A stretch of 56,260 nucleotides of DNA, taken from IMG/VR virus record IMGVR_UViG_3300009124_000014, positions 1 to 56,260 of that record; one strand, given 5' to 3'. The notes under the pieces are model-generated. The model saw only the letters and a program-made list of their open reading frames with translations. It ran no database searches and was not told where the DNA came from. The DNA is from a virus. Lineage: Duplodnaviria; Caudoviricetes. Each line of letters starts with the position of its first letter. Position 1 is the first letter of the stretch. Positions 29,841 through 56,260 of this stretch are shown piece by piece. A program made the translations under genes and the position numbers.

Positions 29841-30683
29841 ATGGCAACACACGCAGTAATCGGTACGGGCACTGCCCCCAGTAAGGTAATTATGGATGGC
29901 TTGGCAGAGGCTGTCGAGGACGGCGACACCTTGTCGCTGGTATGGACTGGTGCCCCAGAAGAAGGCTCCGCTATCGAGTCTGTCTACGCTTTCGTAAAGG
30001 ACAGCGAGACTCCCACGACTGTGTATCACGAGGATGGGCAGAACATCCCGCAGGCTTTGCGCTCGTGGGACAACGTGAGTGTGGTGAAGACCCGCCAGCC
30101 TTTTGCGTCTGCGCTTGACAGTGTCTCTGACGATGGAGTGGTCTTGTTCTTGTGGAACGATGACAAGCCCGACGAGATTCATGGTGTGTTTGACCACTCT
30201 GAGTCGTACAACGTCATGGAGTTGAGTAATGGTCTGTGCCCTATTATTCCGGGCGACGACACAGCACCCCCTGCATCGCCCCCCACTCCTGAGCCTGAAC
30301 CACGCAAGTCAAAGGCTCCCAAACTGCTGAGCATCGATGAGTTGCAAGTTATGACCGCAGTCGCAGTCAAGCAATACGGGCAGGATATGGGTTGTGAGTC
30401 CAAGACAAAGTCAGGCATCATCGAAGAGATTGCCGCACGTTTGGAGACAGAGGTCCCCAGCCCCCCGGAGTCGGTAACAGAGGAACCAGCACCCGTCGTA
30501 AAGGTCGATAACGTATCATTCCCGACCACCAAGCCGGAGAGCACAGCGTCTGATTGGGATGAGGAACTCATCGATTTGACCAAGGATTTCTTGAACCAGA
30601 GACAGACTGGGTTTGAGGCCGACATGGCACACCTTGCCCTTGGTCAGGCACGGCTGTGGATGCTTAAGGCGCTGAATCGTTAA
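29841..30683 (+). CDS. Multidomain hypothetical protein (Rossmann/SLOG-like, HeH-like, Tad1/Acb2-like hairpin)
   Basis: AGGAGG RBS; ORF is solid. Domain calls are motif-level impressions only. Confidence 0.6.
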   Translation: MATHAVIGTGTAPSKVIMDGLAEAVEDGDTLSLVWTGAPEEGSAIESVYAFVKDSETPTTVYHEDGQNIPQALRSWDNVSVVKTRQPFASALDSVSDDGVVLFLWNDDKPDEIHGVFDHSESYNVMELSNGLCPIIPGDDTAPPASPPTPEPEPRKSKAPKLLSIDELQVMTAVAVKQYGQDMGCESKTKSGIIEEIAARLETEVPSPPESVTEEPAPVVKVDNVSFPTTKPESTASDWDEELIDLTKDFLNQRQTGFEADMAHLALGQARLWMLKALNR

Positions 30684-30700
30684 TAATCCTTACCTCTACG

Positions 30701-30728
30701 TTGCCTCAGGTGAACGTGGTGGTATAGT
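30701..30728 (+). promoter_or_regulatory. Promoter TTGCCT-N16-TATAGT with extended -10 TG
   Basis: Intergenic; TGGTATAGT extended -10 element. Confidence 0.6.
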
Positions 30729-30830
30729 ACCAACGTACAGTGTTGCTACTTTTAGTAGAAGTCCTCCTCAGACGGCTGTACGTGGTAGCGAGTGGCCCCC
30801 CACCTCCAGTAAGGTGTGGGGGCCGCTTGC
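30729..30830 (+). ncRNA. Putative structured small RNA or leader RNA
   Basis: ACCAACGTACAG pairs with CTGTACGTGGT; internal CTACT/AGTAG hairpin; unpaired GTCCTCCTC; then a long GC-rich hairpin at 30788-30830. Confidence 0.5.
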
Positions 30831-30846
30831 GTAATAGGGAGGTTGT

Positions 30847-31569
30847 ATGCCAGTATTTGGTGCTGATCCAGAAGCAGAAGACAGAGGATGGGAAGACGTG
30901 AGGACATCACAGGGAGTATTCGTCAGTAGGCCGGTACGGGAGTTGACCAACTATTTTGCATACCACCGCAACACTCGTATGAGTCAGCGGTGCAACGAAG
31001 AGGACAAGTCACGGTTGAACATCTTCTTCTCACGTAAACTGAAGCAGGGGTTTGACAGTGCCTCGATCAAGGAGATCATCGACAGGTTCTACCAGTCACC
31101 AGCGGGTCAGCATGAGTTTGCATCCGCACTCTTCTGCAAAGATGATGTGCAGAAGGAATTGATGGAAGATATCGACATCACCAACAACGACCCTGTTTTA
31201 CAGTGGTTGTTGGATGGGATGCCGAACAGTGGTCCTTTCACTGATCCACGTGAGGTACGCAAAGCCATCATGCAGGAGTGTGTTGAGTCGTTGCTCCGCT
31301 ACCCAGAAGTAGTCGCTGACATTATTCGCATCGACGATCCCGAGCCTCATCTCTCACACCGTTTGGCCAGTTTAGAGAGTCTGATTCTCTGGAACCTCAC
31401 AGATGATTCCGGGAATGCTGGACAATGGCAGGATGTTCTGTGTATCATCACTCTTCCTAAGGAACTGGCTTCACGAGGACGTTCACCGAAGAGCGTACGG
31501 CTTAAGCATGGTTCCGTAAAAGATGCAGTGATGAGGATTCCCATGAGGAGAAGCAAGGAGAGCAGTTGA
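30847..31569 (+). CDS. Hypothetical protein, possible replication initiator/loader partner
   Basis: GGGAGG RBS; first gene of the DnaC-DnaB-primase block. Function from synteny only. Confidence 0.5.
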   Translation: MPVFGADPEAEDRGWEDVRTSQGVFVSRPVRELTNYFAYHRNTRMSQRCNEEDKSRLNIFFSRKLKQGFDSASIKEIIDRFYQSPAGQHEFASALFCKDDVQKELMEDIDITNNDPVLQWLLDGMPNSGPFTDPREVRKAIMQECVESLLRYPEVVADIIRIDDPEPHLSHRLASLESLILWNLTDDSGNAGQWQDVLCIITLPKELASRGRSPKSVRLKHGSVKDAVMRIPMRRSKESS

Positions 31570-37592: not shown

Positions 37593-38267
37593 ATGGGAAT
37601 CTTCGACGAAGACACCAATGATTCGACCGTAGCGGTCGAAGACAGCGACAGCGACATCGACCGTGGAAAGGCACGACGTGTGATCCGTCGTGGCTGGGGC
37701 AATGTCGACAGCACCAAGCAGGCTGACAGCCCGTACGCACAGCGCTTGAAGATCGAGGACAAGCCGGTAGTGGTCAAGTTCCTTGAAGACGAGCCGTACA
37801 CCTCCTTCCGCATGCACTGGGTGGAGCGTCAGGGTCAGAAGTCCTTCACCTGCATCAGCGACATGCACCCTCAGGGTTGCCCTCTGTGTGACGCAGGACA
37901 CCGCCCCTCCGCTCGCTTTGCCTTCAATGTGGCTCTTATGAGCGAGGACGGAGAGACAGTTATCCGTTCCTACGAAGTCGGTCCCCGTGTGATCGATTCT
38001 TTGAAGAACTTCCATCAGGACCCACGTCAGGGTCCACTCCCCAAGCACTACTGGGCGATCAGCCGCAGTGGCAAGGGTCCCACGTCACAGACCAATCACC
38101 AGATGATTCGTGACCGTGATCTGGAGGAGGAGTGGAACATCGAACCGCTCACTGAGGAGCGCATTGAGTCGCTGAAGTCGGAGTCTTACGACGACAGCAT
38201 CGTCCCCATTCCGAACCGCAAGACTCTCGTCACCATTGCGGCAGAGGACATGGATTACGACGACTGA
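37593..38267 (+). CDS. Single-stranded DNA-binding protein (gp32-like)
   Basis: VKFLED, HWV...FTC...CPLC zinc motif, acidic C-terminus; upstream of the polymerase. Confidence 0.78.
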   Translation: MGIFDEDTNDSTVAVEDSDSDIDRGKARRVIRRGWGNVDSTKQADSPYAQRLKIEDKPVVVKFLEDEPYTSFRMHWVERQGQKSFTCISDMHPQGCPLCDAGHRPSARFAFNVALMSEDGETVIRSYEVGPRVIDSLKNFHQDPRQGPLPKHYWAISRSGKGPTSQTNHQMIRDRDLEEEWNIEPLTEERIESLKSESYDDSIVPIPNRKTLVTIAAEDMDYDD

Positions 38268-38268
38268 C

Positions 38269-40365
38269 GTGAACCTCAACAGTGCAGGCGACCAGCGGGG
38301 GCCGAGTGCCCCCGCTGTGTTGTCTATATCGGAGTTATCGACCATTGTCGATATCGTCAAGGAGGAGGGAGCCTTCTCGTTTGACGTAGAAACACGTGGC
38401 AACATTGAGCGTCATGCTGATGTGATGGACCTCGTAGAGCAAGAGTGGATCGCTAAAGAGGCCACCTTGAAGGCCACTCACCCATCAGTGCGTGAGCGCT
38501 CACGTCAGGCCATCGAAGACAAGTGGCGTGGAAACGTAGCCATTGACACCTTGCGTAACGAGGTCTTTTGGATAGGTATCGCCACTCGTAACCACTCTTG
38601 GGCTATCCCTATGGGTCACCCCAACGGTGAAATACTCGTACCGGAAGACAGGGGCGATGGCAGTACCATCCCCCCTGAAGGCTACAGGGCTGTACTTGCT
38701 TCTGGTAAGGAGTCGATGGCTCGTGCAAAGTACTTCATTCCTGCTACGTTCACAGATCCCCCGGAGCAGTTAACACAAGAGCAGGTCTTTACTGCTTTAG
38801 AACCGCTGTTCATGGATGAGGGGATCGTTAAGGTCAATCAGAACATCAAGTTCGATGTGAAGTCAGTGGCTAAGTACTACGGTGGCGAACTACCTAAAGG
38901 TAGGTATATCGACACCATGATCCTCATGCATATCGTGGACGAGAACCTGCCATCGTACAGTCTGAAGAACATCATTGATCGTGTGTACGGCTTTGATCCC
39001 TATCACAGGGACGGCAAGATCGGTAAAACCATCACGACAGAGCCTTTCAGCAAGGCGTGCCGCTACGTTCACTATGACGCCCGTTGGGCTTGGATGCTTT
39101 ACCGGCGTTTGTATAAGTCGATCATGTCGGTGCCGTCTCTGTCTAAGGCTCTTTACCTTGACTTAGATGTCCTTAGTGTCCTTGCACAGATGGAGATGAA
39201 CGGTATCGCCGTCAACCAGCGTGCTATGAAGAATCTCCGCAAGGAACTCGACCTCGACCTCAACACGAAGTTATTGGACATCTCCCAGTACGCCCCCGTC
39301 GGTTTCAATCCTGACAGTAACGCTCACAAGGCCAAGTTCTTGTTCGGTAAGAAGCGTGAGGGCGGTCTTGGTCTGAAGCCGAAAAAGGTGACAGCCAAAG
39401 GTAATCCAAGTGTAGATGACGACTCTTTGAAGTCATTGCAGGGCAAGCACCCCGTCATTGACATGCTGATGGAGTACGCCGAGTTGAAGAAGATGAAGTC
39501 GACGTATGTTGATGGGCTGATCCCACTGCTTCACAGTGGTCGCCTCCATCCCCAGTTCCACTTGCATAGGACTGCTACAGGACGCCTATCCGCTAGTGAC
39601 CCCAATCTTCAGAACATTCCTAGAGACGGTAGGGTTCGTGGATTGTTTGTGGCAGAGCCGGGGAACAGTCTTGTAGTGGCTGACTACTCTCAGATCGAGA
39701 TGCGCATCATGGCTATGTACTCGCAGGACCCTGAGTTGATGAACATCTTTGAGAACAACATCGACGTACACGCCGGTACTGCTAGCGTCATCTTAGGGAA
39801 GCCCCCCGAAGAAGTGACAGGGGAAGAGAGGACGATCTATGGAAAAGTTCCGAACTTCCTCATGGGCTACGGCGGCGGTCCTAAGCGTCTTGTCGATGCT
39901 ACTGGTGGTCAGTTATCTCTTGATGAGGCTCGTGTTGTCGTAGATAACTACAACGCAGGGTACAAAGGTTTGACCTCGTGGAAGGCCAATGTCCTAATGA
40001 AGGCCCGTAAGCAAGGGTACGTTGAGACTATGTACGGTCGTAGACGGAGAGTTCCGGGCCTCTCATCAGATGATTTTGCAGAGAAGTCGAGGTCGGAACG
40101 TCAGGCTATTAACGCTATAGTTCAGGGGACTGCTTCTGAGATATGTAAGGATGCGATGCTCACAGTTAGTTCGGCGTTGCCTTACCCTAAATGCAGGATG
40201 CTGGTGCAGGTGCATGACGAGTTAGTCGTCTCAGTACCCACTGATGAGGTAGTTGAGTGGGCGTCAACCATCGAGAGAGCCATGGGAAATGGTAAGGTGA
40301 TTATGGGAGTTAGTTTGGAAGTCGAAGCACACTTTGCTCAGTCTTGGGCGGAGGCGAAGGGATGA
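38269..40365 (+). CDS. polA: DNA polymerase, family A, with 3'-5' exonuclease domain
   Basis: FDVET, NIKFD, TATGRLSASDPNLQNIP, ADYSQIEMR, KVPNFLMGYG, VQGTA, QVHDEL. Confidence 0.95.
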   Translation: MNLNSAGDQRGPSAPAVLSISELSTIVDIVKEEGAFSFDVETRGNIERHADVMDLVEQEWIAKEATLKATHPSVRERSRQAIEDKWRGNVAIDTLRNEVFWIGIATRNHSWAIPMGHPNGEILVPEDRGDGSTIPPEGYRAVLASGKESMARAKYFIPATFTDPPEQLTQEQVFTALEPLFMDEGIVKVNQNIKFDVKSVAKYYGGELPKGRYIDTMILMHIVDENLPSYSLKNIIDRVYGFDPYHRDGKIGKTITTEPFSKACRYVHYDARWAWMLYRRLYKSIMSVPSLSKALYLDLDVLSVLAQMEMNGIAVNQRAMKNLRKELDLDLNTKLLDISQYAPVGFNPDSNAHKAKFLFGKKREGGLGLKPKKVTAKGNPSVDDDSLKSLQGKHPVIDMLMEYAELKKMKSTYVDGLIPLLHSGRLHPQFHLHRTATGRLSASDPNLQNIPRDGRVRGLFVAEPGNSLVVADYSQIEMRIMAMYSQDPELMNIFENNIDVHAGTASVILGKPPEEVTGEERTIYGKVPNFLMGYGGGPKRLVDATGGQLSLDEARVVVDNYNAGYKGLTSWKANVLMKARKQGYVETMYGRRRRVPGLSSDDFAEKSRSERQAINAIVQGTASEICKDAMLTVSSALPYPKCRMLVQVHDELVVSVPTDEVVEWASTIERAMGNGKVIMGVSLEVEAHFAQSWAEAKG

Positions 40366-41298: not shown

Positions 41299-42318
41299 GT
41301 GGAGCACAAAAGCATCGAAGAACTAGCAGCAGAAATCCAGAAGAAGTATGGGGAACACGTACTGGTAAAGGGTAGTGATGCACGTCAGGAGACGGTACAT
41401 ACCCCCACAGGTATCCTCGCTTACGATCTCGCTCTGGGTGGCGGTTGGGCCGCTAACCAGTGGAATGAGATCATTGGAGAAGAGTCGTCGGGTAAGACGG
41501 CCATTGCGTATAAGACCATTGCTACCAATCAGGCTCGTGATCCAGAGTGGAAGGCTCTGTGGATTGCAGCCGAAGAGTACGTACCTGAGTACGCCGCATC
41601 CTTTGGCGTGGACTTAGACCGGCTTTGGGTCGTAGAGAGCAACGAGATGGAATCTACTCTTGAGTTCATCCTCACCGCTGTCGAGAACCGTGCTGTCGAC
41701 TGCGTCATCATTGACTCGATTCCTGCACTCGTACCTGATCGTGAGGTCGAGAAGAACATGGACGAGGCAACGGTCGGCGTAGGGGCTTTGTTGCTGGGTA
41801 AGTTCTTCCGCAAGTGCGCAAAGGCACAGCGCCGCCATGAGGGTGAGCGTGACGTAACGCTGATTGCCATCAACCAGTGGCGTGACAAGATCGGAGTCAT
41901 GTACGGTGACCCTCGTACGACGCCCGGAGGTAAGGCTAAGAACTACTTCTACTTCACTCGGGTCGAAGTGCGCCGTGACGAATGGCTCAGCGAAGGGTCC
42001 AAGTTGGACAGTCGTGTTGGCCAGTCGATCAAGATGCGTGTCATCAAGAACAAGACCTACCGCCCTCAGCAGATTGCTGTAACTGACTTCTACTTTGCAG
42101 ACACGGTTGGGTTCCGTATGGGGGACTTTGACGTGGTTAAAGACATCGTAAACGTCGCCCTCGCTCTGGAGTTGTTTGAAGGACGCTACAAGTTTGAGGG
42201 CGAGAGGATTGCCAGCAAGAAGGATGAACTGTACGATATGGTTCGTCAGGACTTAGGCTTGCAGGAACGTATCCGTCAGGCCGCAGTGAAAGCAGTATTT
42301 GGAGCAGAAGATGAGTGA
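41299..42318 (+). CDS. recA: RecA/UvsX-like recombinase
   Basis: DLALGGG, GEESSGKT, IIDSIPAL, INQWRDKIGVMYGDPRTTPGGKA. Confidence 0.95.
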   Translation: MEHKSIEELAAEIQKKYGEHVLVKGSDARQETVHTPTGILAYDLALGGGWAANQWNEIIGEESSGKTAIAYKTIATNQARDPEWKALWIAAEEYVPEYAASFGVDLDRLWVVESNEMESTLEFILTAVENRAVDCVIIDSIPALVPDREVEKNMDEATVGVGALLLGKFFRKCAKAQRRHEGERDVTLIAINQWRDKIGVMYGDPRTTPGGKAKNYFYFTRVEVRRDEWLSEGSKLDSRVGQSIKMRVIKNKTYRPQQIAVTDFYFADTVGFRMGDFDVVKDIVNVALALELFEGRYKFEGERIASKKDELYDMVRQDLGLQERIRQAAVKAVFGAEDE

Positions 42319-49163: not shown

Positions 49164-49391
49164 ATGGCAGTAAACGAAACCCGAAACATGAACGCCGATC
49201 TACGTGAAGGCATCACCGATGGCATGGTCAAGAAGGTCAGCCCTGATCGTGGTGGATTCCCGAACGACGATATGGACGCCGGTGCTGTACGTAGCACCGT
49301 CAGTGCAGCGTTGTATGACACTGTAAGCGGCCCTAACCCCGCTCAGAACTACCACGCTGCCCGCTTGACACAGCCACCAGTTCGATACTAA
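49164..49391 (+). CDS. Hypothetical protein
   Basis: Tightly packed ORF with typical codon usage. Confidence 0.7.
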   Translation: MAVNETRNMNADLREGITDGMVKKVSPDRGGFPNDDMDAGAVRSTVSAALYDTVSGPNPAQNYHAARLTQPPVRY

Positions 49392-49413
49392 ACTAACTCG
49401 CTAAAGCGAGTTA
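49365..49413 (+). promoter_or_regulatory. Promoter TTGACA-N18-TAAACT with perfect 9-bp inverted repeat over the start site
   Basis: TAACTCGCT-AA-AGCGAGTTA at 49394-49413, followed by AGGAG RBS. Confidence 0.7.
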
Positions 49414-49427
49414 CCTAGGAGCACCAA

Positions 49428-49907
49428 ATGGCACGTTTGCTTATCTGTAATACCTGTAAGACGGTCGACACTCTGCCCGACTATGCGTCAGAGAACGATC
49501 CCGAGGCGAAGTACGACTACCACCTTCAGGATGCCTGCGATCTTCATGTACGCAAGCACGGTGGTCCCATCGACCGTCACAAAGCCAACCTGTTCAGCAT
49601 CGCTGACGATGAACTGGCTTTGATCGACTCTTCACGCCTTGAACAGGCTGTCCACGACAATCGTCTTGAATCTTTCCTGAAAGAGGAAAGAGAGAACTAC
49701 AAGAACGACGCTCTGAAATGCTACGAACTGCATAATCGCCCCACGTACGGTATTGGTTATGGTTCTGGTTGCGCTGATTACAAAGCAGAGCACCGTGCTA
49801 TTGGTCGCACTACCGGCATTCCTAAAGAGCAGTGGAACTTCATCTGCGACTTCTGCCCGTACAACTCGTACGTGGAGCATGCGGCACGTAAGAAAGCCGG
49901 TCTCTAA
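49428..49907 (+). CDS. Cys/His-rich hypothetical protein (metal-binding)
   Basis: CNTC, HVRKH, CYELH, GCADY, CDFC. Confidence 0.75.
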   Translation: MARLLICNTCKTVDTLPDYASENDPEAKYDYHLQDACDLHVRKHGGPIDRHKANLFSIADDELALIDSSRLEQAVHDNRLESFLKEERENYKNDALKCYELHNRPTYGIGYGSGCADYKAEHRAIGRTTGIPKEQWNFICDFCPYNSYVEHAARKKAGL

Positions 49908-54005: not shown

Positions 54006-54736
54006 AGGTACTTCTGGTAGGTGACACGCACGGTGACTCTAAGTTTGTGTCGAGCGTGAACAGGCTCGCAAAGACGCAGAACGCTCAGTGTGTGATCCAG
54101 TTGGGCGACTTCGGCTATGACTTCAATCCCAACGCCTTAGCCTCGATTAGAGCATGGTTAGACGTGGACGAGAAACGCCGCTGGATGTGGATCGATGGGA
54201 ACCACGATCAGCACGACTACATCCGCTCAGAGATATGTAAGGGCAAGCACCCTAAGAAGCCGGTCAAGCATTTCCATGACCGCATGTTCTATTGCCCTCG
54301 TGGAAGCACCCTCAGGATCGGCAAGAGCAAGGTGCTGTTCCTCGGCGGTGCCGTGAGCGTTGACAAGTCTCGACGACAGCAGGGGATCAACTGGTGGCCT
54401 CAGGAGTCGGTCTCCACTGCCGATGTGCACCGTGCCATCGAGCAGGGTCAGGGTGCGAACGTGCTCATCTCACACGATGCGCCCCCCTCAGGAGCGGTTA
54501 GAGGATGGCTTAGAGAGTGCGGCTACAAGTTAGATAAGGCTTCACAGCACAACAGACAGGCCGTCGAGGCCGTCATGCTGGAGACTGGAGTGACTCAGGT
54601 GTACCACGGCCACTACCACCACCGTTACACCACTGAGCACAAGGACGTACTCATCGAGGGACTTGGGGCGAACTACGCACGAGGAGAGAGCGTCAAGGCG
54701 ACGCTCGATCTCAACGTGTTGGTGCGTGACTTCTAG
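54002..54736 (+). CDS. Calcineurin-like metallophosphoesterase
   Basis: GDTHG, GDFG, GNHD, SHD, HGHYH. Confidence 0.92.
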   Translation: MKVLLVGDTHGDSKFVSSVNRLAKTQNAQCVIQLGDFGYDFNPNALASIRAWLDVDEKRRWMWIDGNHDQHDYIRSEICKGKHPKKPVKHFHDRMFYCPRGSTLRIGKSKVLFLGGAVSVDKSRRQQGINWWPQESVSTADVHRAIEQGQGANVLISHDAPPSGAVRGWLRECGYKLDKASQHNRQAVEAVMLETGVTQVYHGHYHHRYTTEHKDVLIEGLGANYARGESVKATLDLNVLVRDF

Positions 54737-55179
54737 ACCGGCCAGATGTACGGCAGGTCACTGGGGATGCTGGGCCACAGCGGCTGGTAGTGCTCAGGCA
54801 GTTTGCGGATGAGATTGGACTTGTGAGAGTCGGCAATGTCATCGAGGTACGTAGGCAGGGTGTCAGCGTCGCCCCACATTGTGAACAGGTCATGCACTCC
54901 TCGGAAGCGCTCCAGCAGGCTGTCGTTGTAACCTCGACGACGCCACTCCATACAGCACAGCATGCCGTAGCGTGCAAGGGCGGCGATGTGGCCTTCCCAC
55001 ATCTTGGTGGCAGGGTGGTTGACCCATCCCTTGTGGTCCTTGGGTGCACCGTCGTTGTCGACCCCACGTAGGCAGTTCAGTATCTGCCACGCTTCGACAC
55101 GTTGCTTGCCAAGGCGCTGGTAGTCGAGCGCCTCAAAGCCCTTGGTCAGGTTGCGTCCTTCTGGAACGAATGTCTGCAT
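54733..55179 (-). CDS. Pyrimidine-dimer DNA glycosylase/endonuclease V-like protein (MSMEG_6728-type)
   Basis: MQTFVP...LDYQRLGKQRVEAWQIL...GWVNHPATKMW...SHKSNLIRK...YIWP; GAGGAGG RBS. Confidence 0.88.
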   Translation of the reverse strand: MQTFVPEGRNLTKGFEALDYQRLGKQRVEAWQILNCLRGVDNDGAPKDHKGWVNHPATKMWEGHIAALARYGMLCCMEWRRRGYNDSLLERFRGVHDLFTMWGDADTLPTYLDDIADSHKSNLIRKLPEHYQPLWPSIPSDLPYIWPV

Positions 55180-55205
55180 GTTGTCCTCCTCGTGGTGCAG
55201 TATGG

Positions 55206-55337
55206 CTACTGCTTCTCTTTCATCAATCTACCGCCGCCAGTGTGCTTACTGCACGTAGGTGGGTACGTAGGTTTGACGTTGACCGTGATCTTGTTGCCGC
55301 AGGCAGGGCACTCATATGTCTTACTGTTCTTAGCCAT
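55206..55337 (-). CDS. Small zinc-finger protein (43 aa), not in the ORF track
   Basis: GGAGG RBS; MAKNSKTYECPACGNKITVNVKPTYPPTCSKH... Confidence 0.7.
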   Translation of the reverse strand: MAKNSKTYECPACGNKITVNVKPTYPPTCSKHTGGGRLMKEKQ

Positions 55338-55432
55338 GGTTAGACCTCCAGCGGTCACGGTAGCACACTCTCATCTCCACCTGATGTAGGCGATTACGGC
55401 AACTCCCATCACTGCCGTGAGTAGGTGGCATG

Positions 55433-55642
55433 TCATGGGCGATTCTTCTTGTAGTAGTCGGGGTCATTGAGCCAGCCCTCGATCTTTGGTTTGGTTTCGT
55501 GCAACTGCTCGTGCAAAAAGCGACGTGTGCGTGGAGCGTTCTTCCATACGTAGTAGAACGATCCAAGAATGAATGCCGCAATCAAGAAGATGATGAAGTC
55601 GAGCATTGCCGTGCTGTGGCGTAGTCCTTCGTAAGCAAGCAT
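55433..55642 (-). CDS. Small single-TM protein (start may be 55606)
   Basis: FIIFLIAAFILGSFYYVW hydrophobic helix. Confidence 0.6.
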   Translation of the reverse strand: MLAYEGLRHSTAMLDFIIFLIAAFILGSFYYVWKNAPRTRRFLHEQLHETKPKIEGWLNDPDYYKKNRP

Positions 55643-55643
55643 G

Positions 55644-55838
55644 TCATACCTCGCAGTACATTGCGATGTAGTTGCCGACGGTCAGGCGCTCTTCGTGGCA
55701 CTGCCACAAGACCCTCTGAGCCTCTCTAAAGGACCACGCACGGTAGATGCCAGTGTGATCGGTTACTTTGAACTTCGTGTTGCTCTTACTCTCGTCCCTT
55801 GTCAGGTACGGCATGCGCTTCTTCTTGTCAGTGGTCAT
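55644..55838 (-). CDS. Hypothetical protein
   Basis: GAGG RBS; packed among minus-strand genes. Confidence 0.55.
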   Translation of the reverse strand: MTTDKKKRMPYLTRDESKSNTKFKVTDHTGIYRAWSFREAQRVLWQCHEERLTVGNYIAMYCEV

Positions 55839-56007
55839 TGTTCCTCATTTCCATCAGGTACTCGTAATCTGCTTCATAGGTGTAGTCGCACTCATCATTG
55901 GTGCAGTGTCCCTCATACTTGTCTCCTTCAAGTCCACCGTCGCACTGGGGGCAACGTGGGACCTCCTCATCGGGATTGGTTGTCTTCCAGTTGTCGTAGG
56001 CGCTCAC
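55828..56007 (-). CDS. Small acidic zinc-ribbon protein (59 aa), not in the ORF track
   Basis: GTGA overlap; SAYDNWKTTNPDEEVPRCPQC...CTNDEC. Confidence 0.65.
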   Translation of the reverse strand: MSAYDNWKTTNPDEEVPRCPQCDGGLEGDKYEGHCTNDECDYTYEADYEYLMEMRNNDH

Positions 56008-56186
56008 TCCAAGCCCTCCACGGTCAATCGCTCCATCACCTCGATGTGCGCTTCTTCTTTGGTCTTCTTTCCCATGAAGATCGAGAAGGCGTGTGCCGCC
56101 ATCAGTTCATCGTAGCGAGTTACAGGGTGCATCTCGGCGTACCTGCGCTCGCCCTCTTTGACTGCTTCCCATTGTGGTGTTGCCAT
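56004..56186 (-). CDS. Hypothetical protein
   Basis: GAGGAGGAGG RBS before MATPQWEAVKEG. Confidence 0.7.
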   Translation of the reverse strand: MATPQWEAVKEGERRYAEMHPVTRYDELMAAHAFSIFMGKKTKEEAHIEVMERLTVEGLE

Positions 56187-56260
56187 GTCAGTTGTCCTCC
56201 TCCTCAAACATGATGACGTTGCGGTCAGTGGCATGAATCTCGCACACCGGCGAGATTTCG

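What the first reader, a model, noticed from the sequence alone, without database searches (positions are those of the whole stretch)
30701..30846. Promoter-driven structured RNA exposing an anti-Shine-Dalgarno sequence
Seen: directly after an extended -10 promoter, ACCAACGTACAG can pair with CTGTACGTGGT, enclosing a CTACT/AGTAG hairpin and unpaired AAGTCCTCCTC. A second stem of about 18 bp follows (30788-30830), then the GGGAGG RBS of the replication operon. GTCCTCCTC is the exact complement of GAGGAGGAC, the RBS of minus-strand genes starting at 55179 and 56186, and partly matches the RBS at 29841, 36530 and 30847. No start codon follows the motif on the minus strand. Inference: a phage sRNA or riboregulator that silences strong-SD mRNAs while leaderless genes escape, or a cis switch on replication genes. 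An origin-associated structure is an alternative.
Basis: partly seen in the sequence, partly recalled or inferred. Interest (0 to 1): 0.7.

Follow-up and report, generated by a model that had tools for sequence, protein, structure and literature searches.

The report
Promoter and structured leader of replication genes
This is a promoter followed by a folded, untranslated leader at the front of a phage's DNA-replication genes, shared with related uncultured phages, and it looks like an ordinary cis-acting control region rather than a free small RNA that silences other genes.

Summary
The described sequence features are all present at 30701-30846 and fold far better than shuffles (z -4.1). The window is an uncultured phage record. 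The region is the 163-nt spacer in front of the replication module (unknown 240-aa gene, helicase loader, DnaB, primase, SNF2 helicase, PolA).

Ten distinct relatives' sequences carry a homologous spacer with the same order of parts: sigma-70-type promoter with extended -10, small hairpin starting at the predicted 5' end, pyrimidine-rich tract, 17-22 bp GC hairpin without U tract, SD, start codon. Twelve other relatives have no spacer at all, so the module is optional.

The long hairpin shows compensatory changes and is always more stable on the + strand, so it acts as RNA.

For that transcript the CCUCCU tract is predicted to pair with the gene's own SD (P about 0.85).

Nothing supports a discrete trans-acting RNA. 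There is no terminator. The CCUCC core is not conserved. The proposed target RBSs do not co-vary in 0 of 2 relatives.

Verdict: a new, unnamed example of a known kind, a structured cis-acting mRNA leader. No RNA data exist.

The parts
30701..30706 (+). -35-like hexamer of the promoter
   Evidence: Relatives carry a -35 (the full consensus hexamer in 6 of 10 sequences) at the same place relative to the leader.
30720..30728 (+). TG-extended -10 element
   Evidence: A TGn motif before the -10 is seen in 9 of 11 relatives' sequences printed.
30735..30737 (+). predicted transcription start (inferred, not mapped)
   Evidence: Taken as 7-9 nt after the -10. In 8 of 11 relatives a hairpin starts at +1 or +2 of the start predicted the same way.
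30729..30740 (+).
30746..30758 (+). small 5-bp hairpin
30761..30770 (+). pyrimidine-rich tract (anti-SD-like); the homologous tract is conserved in relatives
   Evidence: It pairs with the SD at P 0.85-0.92 for a start at 30735-37.
30776..30786 (+).
30788..30830 (+). long GC-rich hairpin: 18 bp, one bulge, no U tract after it
   Evidence: Covariation (4 of 13 pairs compensatory). The + strand is more stable than its reverse complement (-36.0 against -30.1).
30837..30842 (+). Shine-Dalgarno sequence of the first replication-module gene
30847..31569 (+). 240-aa gene of unknown function, first gene of the replication module
   Evidence: No Pfam or PHROG family. No fold match. Followed by a DnaC-like loader, DnaB, primase, SNF2 helicase and PolA.

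Best explanation
The spacer 30684-30846 is a host-type (sigma-70 class, extended -10) promoter plus the structured 5' untranslated leader of the phage's replication-gene operon. It works in cis, as RNA.

Shown here:
- The promoter, a 5'-proximal hairpin, a pyrimidine tract and a long GC hairpin abutting the SD are conserved in that order in relatives.
- The long hairpin is maintained by compensatory changes and by G-U pairs that exist only on the + strand.
- No terminator separates the leader from the gene.

Inferred:
- Transcription starts near 30735.
- The stable hairpins protect the mRNA against 5'-end-dependent and 3' exonucleolytic decay. The long hairpin may also be a double-strand-specific processing site that uncouples the operon from read-through RNA.
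- In this phage the pyrimidine tract folds back on the SD of the first gene and damps its translation. The long hairpin serves as the clamp that brings the two together.
- In read-through transcripts from the upstream genes, the full first stem forms instead and the tract is not on the SD.
For: Context: the spacer lies between a 280-aa ORF and the replication module.

Conservation: 10 distinct relatives' sequences (L002, L009, L005, L008, L020, L023, L011, L015, L016, L168) have promoter, small hairpin, pyrimidine tract, long hairpin, SD and ATG in the same order.

Promoter: -35 and -10 elements are conserved while the spacer letters differ.

Small hairpin: it starts at +1 or +2 of the predicted start in 8 of 11 relatives. 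L168 carries a two-sided change at the loop-closing pair.

Long hairpin:
- 89.7% of cells are paired, and 4 of 13 pairs have two-sided changes.
- The covariation score is 0.295 against 0.208 in shuffles (0 of 500 reach it) and 0.06-0.14 when slid.
- The + strand is more stable than the reverse complement in 12 of 12 sequences.
- There are 3 or fewer U in the next 12 nt in 11 of 12.

Cis pairing in the window: P(tract paired with SD) is 0.83-0.92 for a start at 30735 or 30737, 0.26 for 30733, and 0.0 in read-through RNA.

General knowledge: 5' stem-loops and 5' UTRs as mRNA stabilisers (PMC7509114, passages seen).
Against: - No RNA data exist: the run search listed only DNA metagenomes. The start site, the stability effect and any processing are therefore unproven.
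- Tract-SD pairing is not a family feature. It is strong only in the window and L011, partial in L015/16 and L168, and absent in L002/9, L005/8 and L020/23.
- Matched tract/SD pairs are no better than mismatched ones (1835 of 5040 permutations are as good).
- Flank-flank pairing is not above shuffles in 5 of 5 usable cases.
- Predicted SD occlusion (0.84) lies within the range of 28 SD-bearing control genes (median 0.66; 18% are at least as paired).
- The window's 5' region differs from its relatives and has no clearly 5'-terminal hairpin of its own.
- Twelve relatives lack the spacer altogether, so whatever it does is dispensable.
- The conservation of the pyrimidine tract itself remains unexplained.
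Confidence: 0.72

Rival explanations
1. First reader's model. The leader is released as a small RNA: 5' structure, exposed CCUCCU seed, 3' hairpin. It pairs in trans with strong SD sequences of phage or host mRNAs and silences them.
For: - Hairpin, single-stranded pyrimidine seed, hairpin is a typical sRNA layout.
- The 9-mer at 30761-69 is the exact complement of two minus-strand RBSs.
- The tract is open in the read-through fold (P paired about 0.05).
- A pyrimidine tract is kept in all leader-bearing relatives.
Against: - No U tract follows the hairpin, and the SD starts 7 nt after it.
- With the predicted start, the tract sits on its own SD.
- The CCUCC core is lost in L005/8/20/23 and, in the tract, in L002/9.
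- Homologues of the gene at 54733-55179 in two relatives have RBSs that share only the generic SD core, or a 5-nt run, with their own leader tract (0 of 2 co-vary).
- CCTCCT occurs 20 times on the + strand, so complementarity to an SD is cheap.
Confidence: 0.06
2. The long hairpin is intergenic punctuation for the upstream transcript. It would be a 3'-end barrier, a weak terminator or an RNase III-type site, and the promoter merely overlaps it. The pyrimidine tract would have no role of its own.
For: - Very stable hairpins with GNRA or UUCG tetraloops occur in several relatives.
- The helix length of 17-22 bp is in the range of double-strand-specific cleavage sites.
- All genes on both sides are on the same strand.
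- This reading is compatible with, and partly contained in, the best explanation.
Against: - The promoter lies upstream of the hairpin in every relative, so promoter transcripts carry it too.
- No U tract follows in 11 of 12, whereas the phage has a hairpin with a U-rich tail elsewhere (38293-38317).
- It does not explain why the tract and the small hairpin are conserved.
Confidence: 0.15
3. The leader is a processive antitermination signal. It would be either boxA/nut-like (a hairpin plus a pyrimidine-rich box bound by NusB-NusE) or put-like (two hairpins acting on RNA polymerase), and would carry polymerase through terminators inside the replication operon.
For: - It is promoter-proximal, with a hairpin next to a conserved single-stranded pyrimidine box.
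- The tract of the L005 group matches 8 of 11 positions of the gamma-proteobacterial boxA consensus GYTCTTTAANA (consensus from PMC5725501, passage; match counted by eye on the sequences).
- A terminator-like hairpin lies inside the operon at 38293-38317.
Against: - The window's tract matches the consensus poorly.
- In the ungapped alignment the G at boxA position 2 is a U in all relatives. G2, C5 and U6 are the positions reported as critical (PMC3177189, passage).
- The hairpin loops are not conserved, unlike a protein-binding boxB.
- The element occurs once per genome.
- The host and its own boxA are unknown.
Confidence: 0.06
4. A DNA-level element: a replication origin or a protein-binding palindrome next to the initiator and loader genes.
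For: Its position directly upstream of the replication genes, and its inverted repeats.
Against: - No iterons: only 2-copy short families.
- GC is 0.48-0.57, with no AT-rich stretch.
- The hairpin is more stable on the + strand in 12 of 12 because of G-U pairs, which a duplex-DNA site would not need.
- It is absent from 12 relatives that keep the same replication genes.
Confidence: 0.02

Closest known systems
ompA-type 5' UTR mRNA stabiliser (5'-terminal stem-loop, single-stranded linker, second stem-loop next to the RBS). The layout is recalled; the general role of 5' stem-loops and 5' UTRs comes from PMC7509114 passages.
   Same: The order of parts is the same: hairpin at or near the 5' end, single-stranded linker, second hairpin a few nt before the SD. 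It acts in cis on its own mRNA.
   Different: - There is no sequence relation.
- The linker is pyrimidine-rich rather than AU-rich.
- The second hairpin is much longer and more GC-rich.
- Any stabilising effect is untested here.
Cis anti-SD masking of an RBS in mRNA leaders (as in RNA thermometers, riboswitch expression platforms and RNase III-activated leaders; recalled).
   Same: A CCUCCU tract upstream can pair with the gene's own GGGAGG (P 0.85-0.92). A stable hairpin between them brings the two together.
   Different: - No ligand- or temperature-sensing fold is recognisable.
- The pairing is not conserved across relatives.
- Opening costs only 1.6-3.0 kcal/mol.
Lambda-type early leader (promoter, nut site, large RNase III hairpin, SD of the first gene) and rrn boxB-boxA leaders. 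The layout is recalled; the boxA consensus and critical positions come from PMC5725501 and PMC3177189.
   Same: It is a promoter-proximal hairpin followed by a pyrimidine-rich box, a long hairpin and then the SD.
   Different: - The boxA consensus is not met in the window.
- The loops are not conserved.
- No N-like protein is identified.
- There is one copy per genome.
Trans-acting sRNAs with C/U-rich seeds that target SD regions (recalled).
   Same: A pyrimidine seed flanked by hairpins.
   Different: There is no own terminator, it is contiguous with a coding gene, and there is no target covariation.

Membership tests
Trans-acting base-pairing sRNA | Own promoter | tested here: met
   The promoter is conserved in 10 relatives' sequences. 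Promoter likeness alone is at chance level.
Trans-acting base-pairing sRNA | Defined 3' end (terminator or processing) that gives a discrete short transcript | tested here: not met
   By sequence only. No U tract follows the hairpin in 11 of 12 sequences, and the SD and ATG follow within 17 nt. Processing could not be tested because no RNA runs were found.
Trans-acting base-pairing sRNA | Conserved, accessible seed whose targets co-vary with it | tested here: not met
   The tract stays pyrimidine-rich but the CCUCC core is not kept. With the predicted start it is paired at P 0.85-0.92. Target RBSs follow the tract in 0 of 2 relatives.
Structured 5' UTR / mRNA stabiliser leader | Lies between a promoter and the SD of a same-strand gene, with no terminator between | tested here: met
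Structured 5' UTR / mRNA stabiliser leader | Stem-loop within a few nt of the 5' end | tested here: inconclusive
   Predicted in 8 of 11 relatives. In the window only a 6-bp closing stem begins at the predicted start. No start site has been mapped.
Structured 5' UTR / mRNA stabiliser leader | Prolongs mRNA half-life | not testable with these tools
   Needs decay measurements.
Cis anti-SD translational mask | Upstream tract complementary to the gene's own SD and paired with it in the predicted ensemble | tested here: met
   Window: 6 bp, P 0.83-0.92 for a start at 30735-37.
Cis anti-SD translational mask | Pairing conserved or co-varying in relatives | tested here: not met
   1835 of 5040 permutations are as good. 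Pairing is strong in 2 of the 12 sequences listed (the window among them), partial in 3 (L015, L016, L168), and absent from the rest.
boxA/nut-type antitermination site | Match to the boxA consensus, including the critical G2, C5 and U6 | tested here: not met
   The window tract was compared by eye with GYTCTTTAANA and the critical positions. G2 is absent. The L005 group matches 8 of 11 positions.
boxA/nut-type antitermination site | Binding of NusB-NusE and read-through of terminators | not testable with these tools
   The host is unknown and no assay is available.
Intrinsic terminator | GC-rich hairpin followed by a U tract | tested here: not met
   The hairpin is present, but there are only 2 U in the next 12 nt. 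The terminator scan did not list it.
Rfam families | Covariance-model match | tested here: not met
   There were 0 matches at gathering score in the window. Only chance-level rows (E 4-10) appeared in the region. There was one sub-threshold row in 9 relatives.
Replication origin | Iterons and an AT-rich unwinding stretch | tested here: not met

The most novel reading that the evidence does not exclude
The leader has two uses. Cleavage or pausing at the long hairpin would release an RNA of about 95 nt: 5' structure, exposed CCUCC-type tract, very stable 3' hairpin. Its hairpin-plus-pyrimidine-tail layout would imitate the 3' end of 16S rRNA and would compete for SD sequences, or for factors that bind that tail, during infection. 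Which fold forms, tract on its own SD or tract exposed, would depend on whether the RNA starts at the promoter or reads through from the upstream genes.
Probability: 0.07. Interest if true: 0.7.

Novelty: new member of a known kind. Interest (0 to 1): 0.3.

Why it matters
It marks the start of the replication transcription unit in a lineage of uncultured estuarine phages with no cultured relative. It also defines a small, conserved leader RNA that is absent from Rfam.

If the 5'-end-dependent refolding is real, it would be a simple way for a phage to translate the same genes differently from early and read-through transcripts. As it stands, this is a normal kind of regulatory region. The idea of a global anti-SD silencer is not supported.

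Tried and rejected
- Similarity to known phages: blastn of the region and tblastn of the 240-aa protein against 50,697 phage records found no match. The best PolA hits are only 31-35% identical.
- Rfam: nothing in gathering or E-value mode.
- RNA evidence: no RNA holder is listed among the sequencing runs. Laying four DNA runs gave no variants in the region.
Only 4 rows had both the promoter and the downstream motif, and all 4 sit in front of the same gene; the rest look like chance.
- MAFFT plus RNAalifold on whole leaders: the hairpins were misaligned and the result was useless. I used a covariance model of the long hairpin alone instead. L168 fell below the cut-off and was left out of the count. 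The minus-strand matches were excluded by lowering the E-value limit.
- First SD-accessibility measure (fixed -14..-5 window): too crude. It was replaced by a located SD hexamer.
- Flank-pairing shuffles: the automatic boundaries failed for L011 and L168 and missed the tract in the window. The other 5 cases showed no excess.
- The 240-aa protein: the AlphaFold model has pLDDT 78. The Foldseek PDB search gave no hit with E <= 0.001, and the Atlas gave no usable hit.
- A small ORF in the leader (30740-30901): rejected, because it has no SD, is not at the 5' end and is not conserved.
- put-like antitermination: considered from recall only and not tested.

Full report
**What is there**

The window is a 56,260-base virus record, estimated 60% complete, with about 52% GC. 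Nearly all long ORFs are on the + strand.

The finding lies in the 163-nt spacer 30684-30846. Upstream is a 280-aa ORF (29841-30683, no family). Downstream is a 240-aa ORF (30847-31569, no Pfam or PHROG family). After that come a DnaC-like loader, DnaB, primase, an SNF2 helicase and PolA. The spacer is therefore the front of the replication module.

- a -35-like hexamer at 30701-06 and a TG-extended -10 at 30720-28;
- arms 30729-40 and 30776-86 that pair;
- an inner 5-bp hairpin at 30746-58;
- the pyrimidine tract at 30761-70;
- an 18-bp hairpin at 30788-30830;
- GGGAGG at 30837-42.

The RNA fold of 30729-30860 is -58.7 kcal/mol, with z = -4.11 and 0 of 200 shuffles as good. The 9-mer at 30761-69 has two other + strand copies, at 55183 and 56194. 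Those are the complements of the RBSs of two minus-strand genes.

Two cautions apply. Promoter-like sites are no more frequent here than in shuffles (13 against 13.9). CCTCCT occurs 20 times on the + strand.

**Relatives**

No isolated phage is close.

Searches with the 240-aa protein found uncultured relatives in viral and metagenome contigs and in one MAG. They give 25 distinct upstream regions.

Ten of these carry a spacer of 108-150 nt with the same order of parts as the window: L002, L009, L005, L008, L020, L023, L011, L015, L016 and L168. The parts, in order, are:
- a sigma-70-type promoter, with the full -35 consensus in six sequences and TGn before the -10 in 9 of 11 printed;
- a 6-7 bp hairpin that starts at +1 or +2 of a start placed 7 nt after the -10, in 8 of 11;
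- a tract that begins GUC, runs through five or six C/U and ends CA;
- a long GC hairpin;
- the SD, then the ATG.

L006 has a different long leader that also encloses such a tract. L038 is ambiguous.

Twelve relatives have 12 nt or fewer between the two genes, and L017 has 37 nt.

On a tree of the 240-aa protein, leader-bearing and leaderless phages interleave. For example, L007 is sister to the L005 group, and L003/L012/L027 are sister to L015/16. The module is therefore optional.

The tract with its hairpin occurs once per genome. Exact or 1-mismatch copies occur only at the leader, and 2-mismatch counts equal the reversed-pattern control.

**RNA or DNA, and real structure or not**

A covariance model of the long hairpin aligned 10 sequences (9 distinct). 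L168 fell below the cut-off. The counts are:
- 89.7% of cells paired;
- 4 of 13 pairs with two-sided changes;
- covariation score 0.295, against 0.208 +/- 0.027 in shuffles (0 of 500 reach it) and 0.06-0.14 when slid.

That alignment is fitted to the model, which favours the structure.

Independently of the model, the hairpin domain is more stable on the + strand than on its reverse complement in 12 of 12 sequences, by 3.7 to 19.6 kcal/mol, because of G-U pairs. This points to + sense RNA.

The 12 nt after the hairpin hold 3 or fewer U in 11 of 12 sequences. The phage does have a hairpin with a U-rich tail elsewhere, at 38293-38317. So the long hairpin is not a classical terminator, and the leader runs into the gene.

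There is no Rfam match. There are no iterons and no AT-rich stretch.

**The anti-SD question**

The predicted fold depends on where the RNA begins.

| RNA start | P(tract 30763-68 paired with SD 30837-42) | Other features |
|---|---|---|
| 30735 or 30737 | 0.83-0.92 per nt | Forcing the SD open costs 1.6-3.0 kcal/mol |
| 30733 | about 0.26 | First stem re-forms |
| 30600 (read-through) | 0.0 | Full first stem forms; tract open (P paired about 0.05) |

In the promoter transcript the tract acts as a cis mask.

This is not a family rule:
- Tract-SD pairing is strong only in the window and L011. It is partial in L015/16 and L168, and absent in L002/9, L005/8 and L020/23.
- Matched tract/SD pairs are no better than mismatched ones (1835 of 5040 permutations are as good).
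- Flank-pairing shuffles show no excess in 5 of 5 usable cases.
- The window's SD occlusion (0.84) is within the range of 28 SD-bearing control genes.

For the trans model I looked at homologues of the minus-strand gene 54733-55179, which were found in 2 of 5 relative records searched. Their RBSs share only the generic SD core, or a 5-nt run, with their own leader's tract. The 9-nt match in the window therefore does not co-vary.

**Other readings**

The tract of the L005 group resembles the gamma-proteobacterial boxA consensus GYTCTTTAANA at 8 of 11 positions (PMC5725501, passage). However, the G at position 2 is absent in the ungapped alignment, and the window matches poorly. G2, C5 and U6 are the positions reported as critical (PMC3177189, passage). 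The hairpin loops are not conserved.

The host is unknown. The only hint is a RecA homologue (66% identical) and a homologue of the 240-aa gene on two contigs of a MAG labelled Lysinibacter.

**Conclusion**

The best-supported reading is a promoter plus a structured, cis-acting 5' leader of the replication operon.

Conservation, strand asymmetry and the absence of a terminator are shown. The start site, a stabilising or processing role for the hairpins (general background: PMC7509114, passages), and translational damping by the tract in this phage are inferred.

What selects for the pyrimidine tract across the family is not explained. The element is a new, unnamed example of a known kind of region.

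Supplementary files of the papers were not consulted; the boxA tables in them could refine the comparison.

Noticed in passing
window 49365-49427: A second sigma-70-like promoter (full -35 consensus, 18-nt spacer) is followed at once by an 8-bp hairpin and an SD in front of the gene at 49428. A promoter followed by a 5' hairpin may be a recurring layout in this phage.
   Followed up: no
window 38268-38385: A 10-bp GC hairpin with a U-rich tail (38293-38317) lies after the stop at 38267, followed by a second small hairpin and a strong SD. The true PolA start is probably downstream of the TTG at 38236 listed by the ORF finder.
   Followed up: partly
window 54733-56234, minus strand: A cluster of small minus-strand genes sits at the right end of an otherwise + strand genome. 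Two of them share the same RBS and the following 3 nt. Homologues of the 148-aa gene exist in 2 of 5 relative records searched.
   Followed up: partly
window 41299-42318; L173, L174: The phage RecA is 66% identical to a gene on a contig of a MAG labelled Lysinibacter. Another contig of that MAG carries a homologue of the 240-aa gene with no leader. This is either a weak hint of a Microbacteriaceae host or a co-binned phage.
   Followed up: partly
L003, L007, L010, L012-L014, L018, L027, L029, L171, L172, L174: In these relatives the upstream gene and the 240-aa gene abut or overlap (12 nt or fewer). The whole promoter-leader module is therefore present or absent between close relatives.
   Followed up: yes
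L006 1400-1503: A differently built leader. A long closing helix starts near the predicted 5' end and encloses inner hairpins and a similar pyrimidine tract that pairs with an upstream purine run rather than with the SD.
   Followed up: no
window 30711-30720 and 30777-30786: A 10-nt direct repeat (9 of 10 identical) flanks the promoter and leader. Either copy can pair with 30729-37, which gives alternative folds in read-through RNA.
   Followed up: no
window 30847-31569: The first gene of the replication module is all-helical (model pLDDT 78). It has no Pfam, PHROG, PDB-fold or Atlas relative, and is found only in this uncultured phage group.
   Followed up: partly
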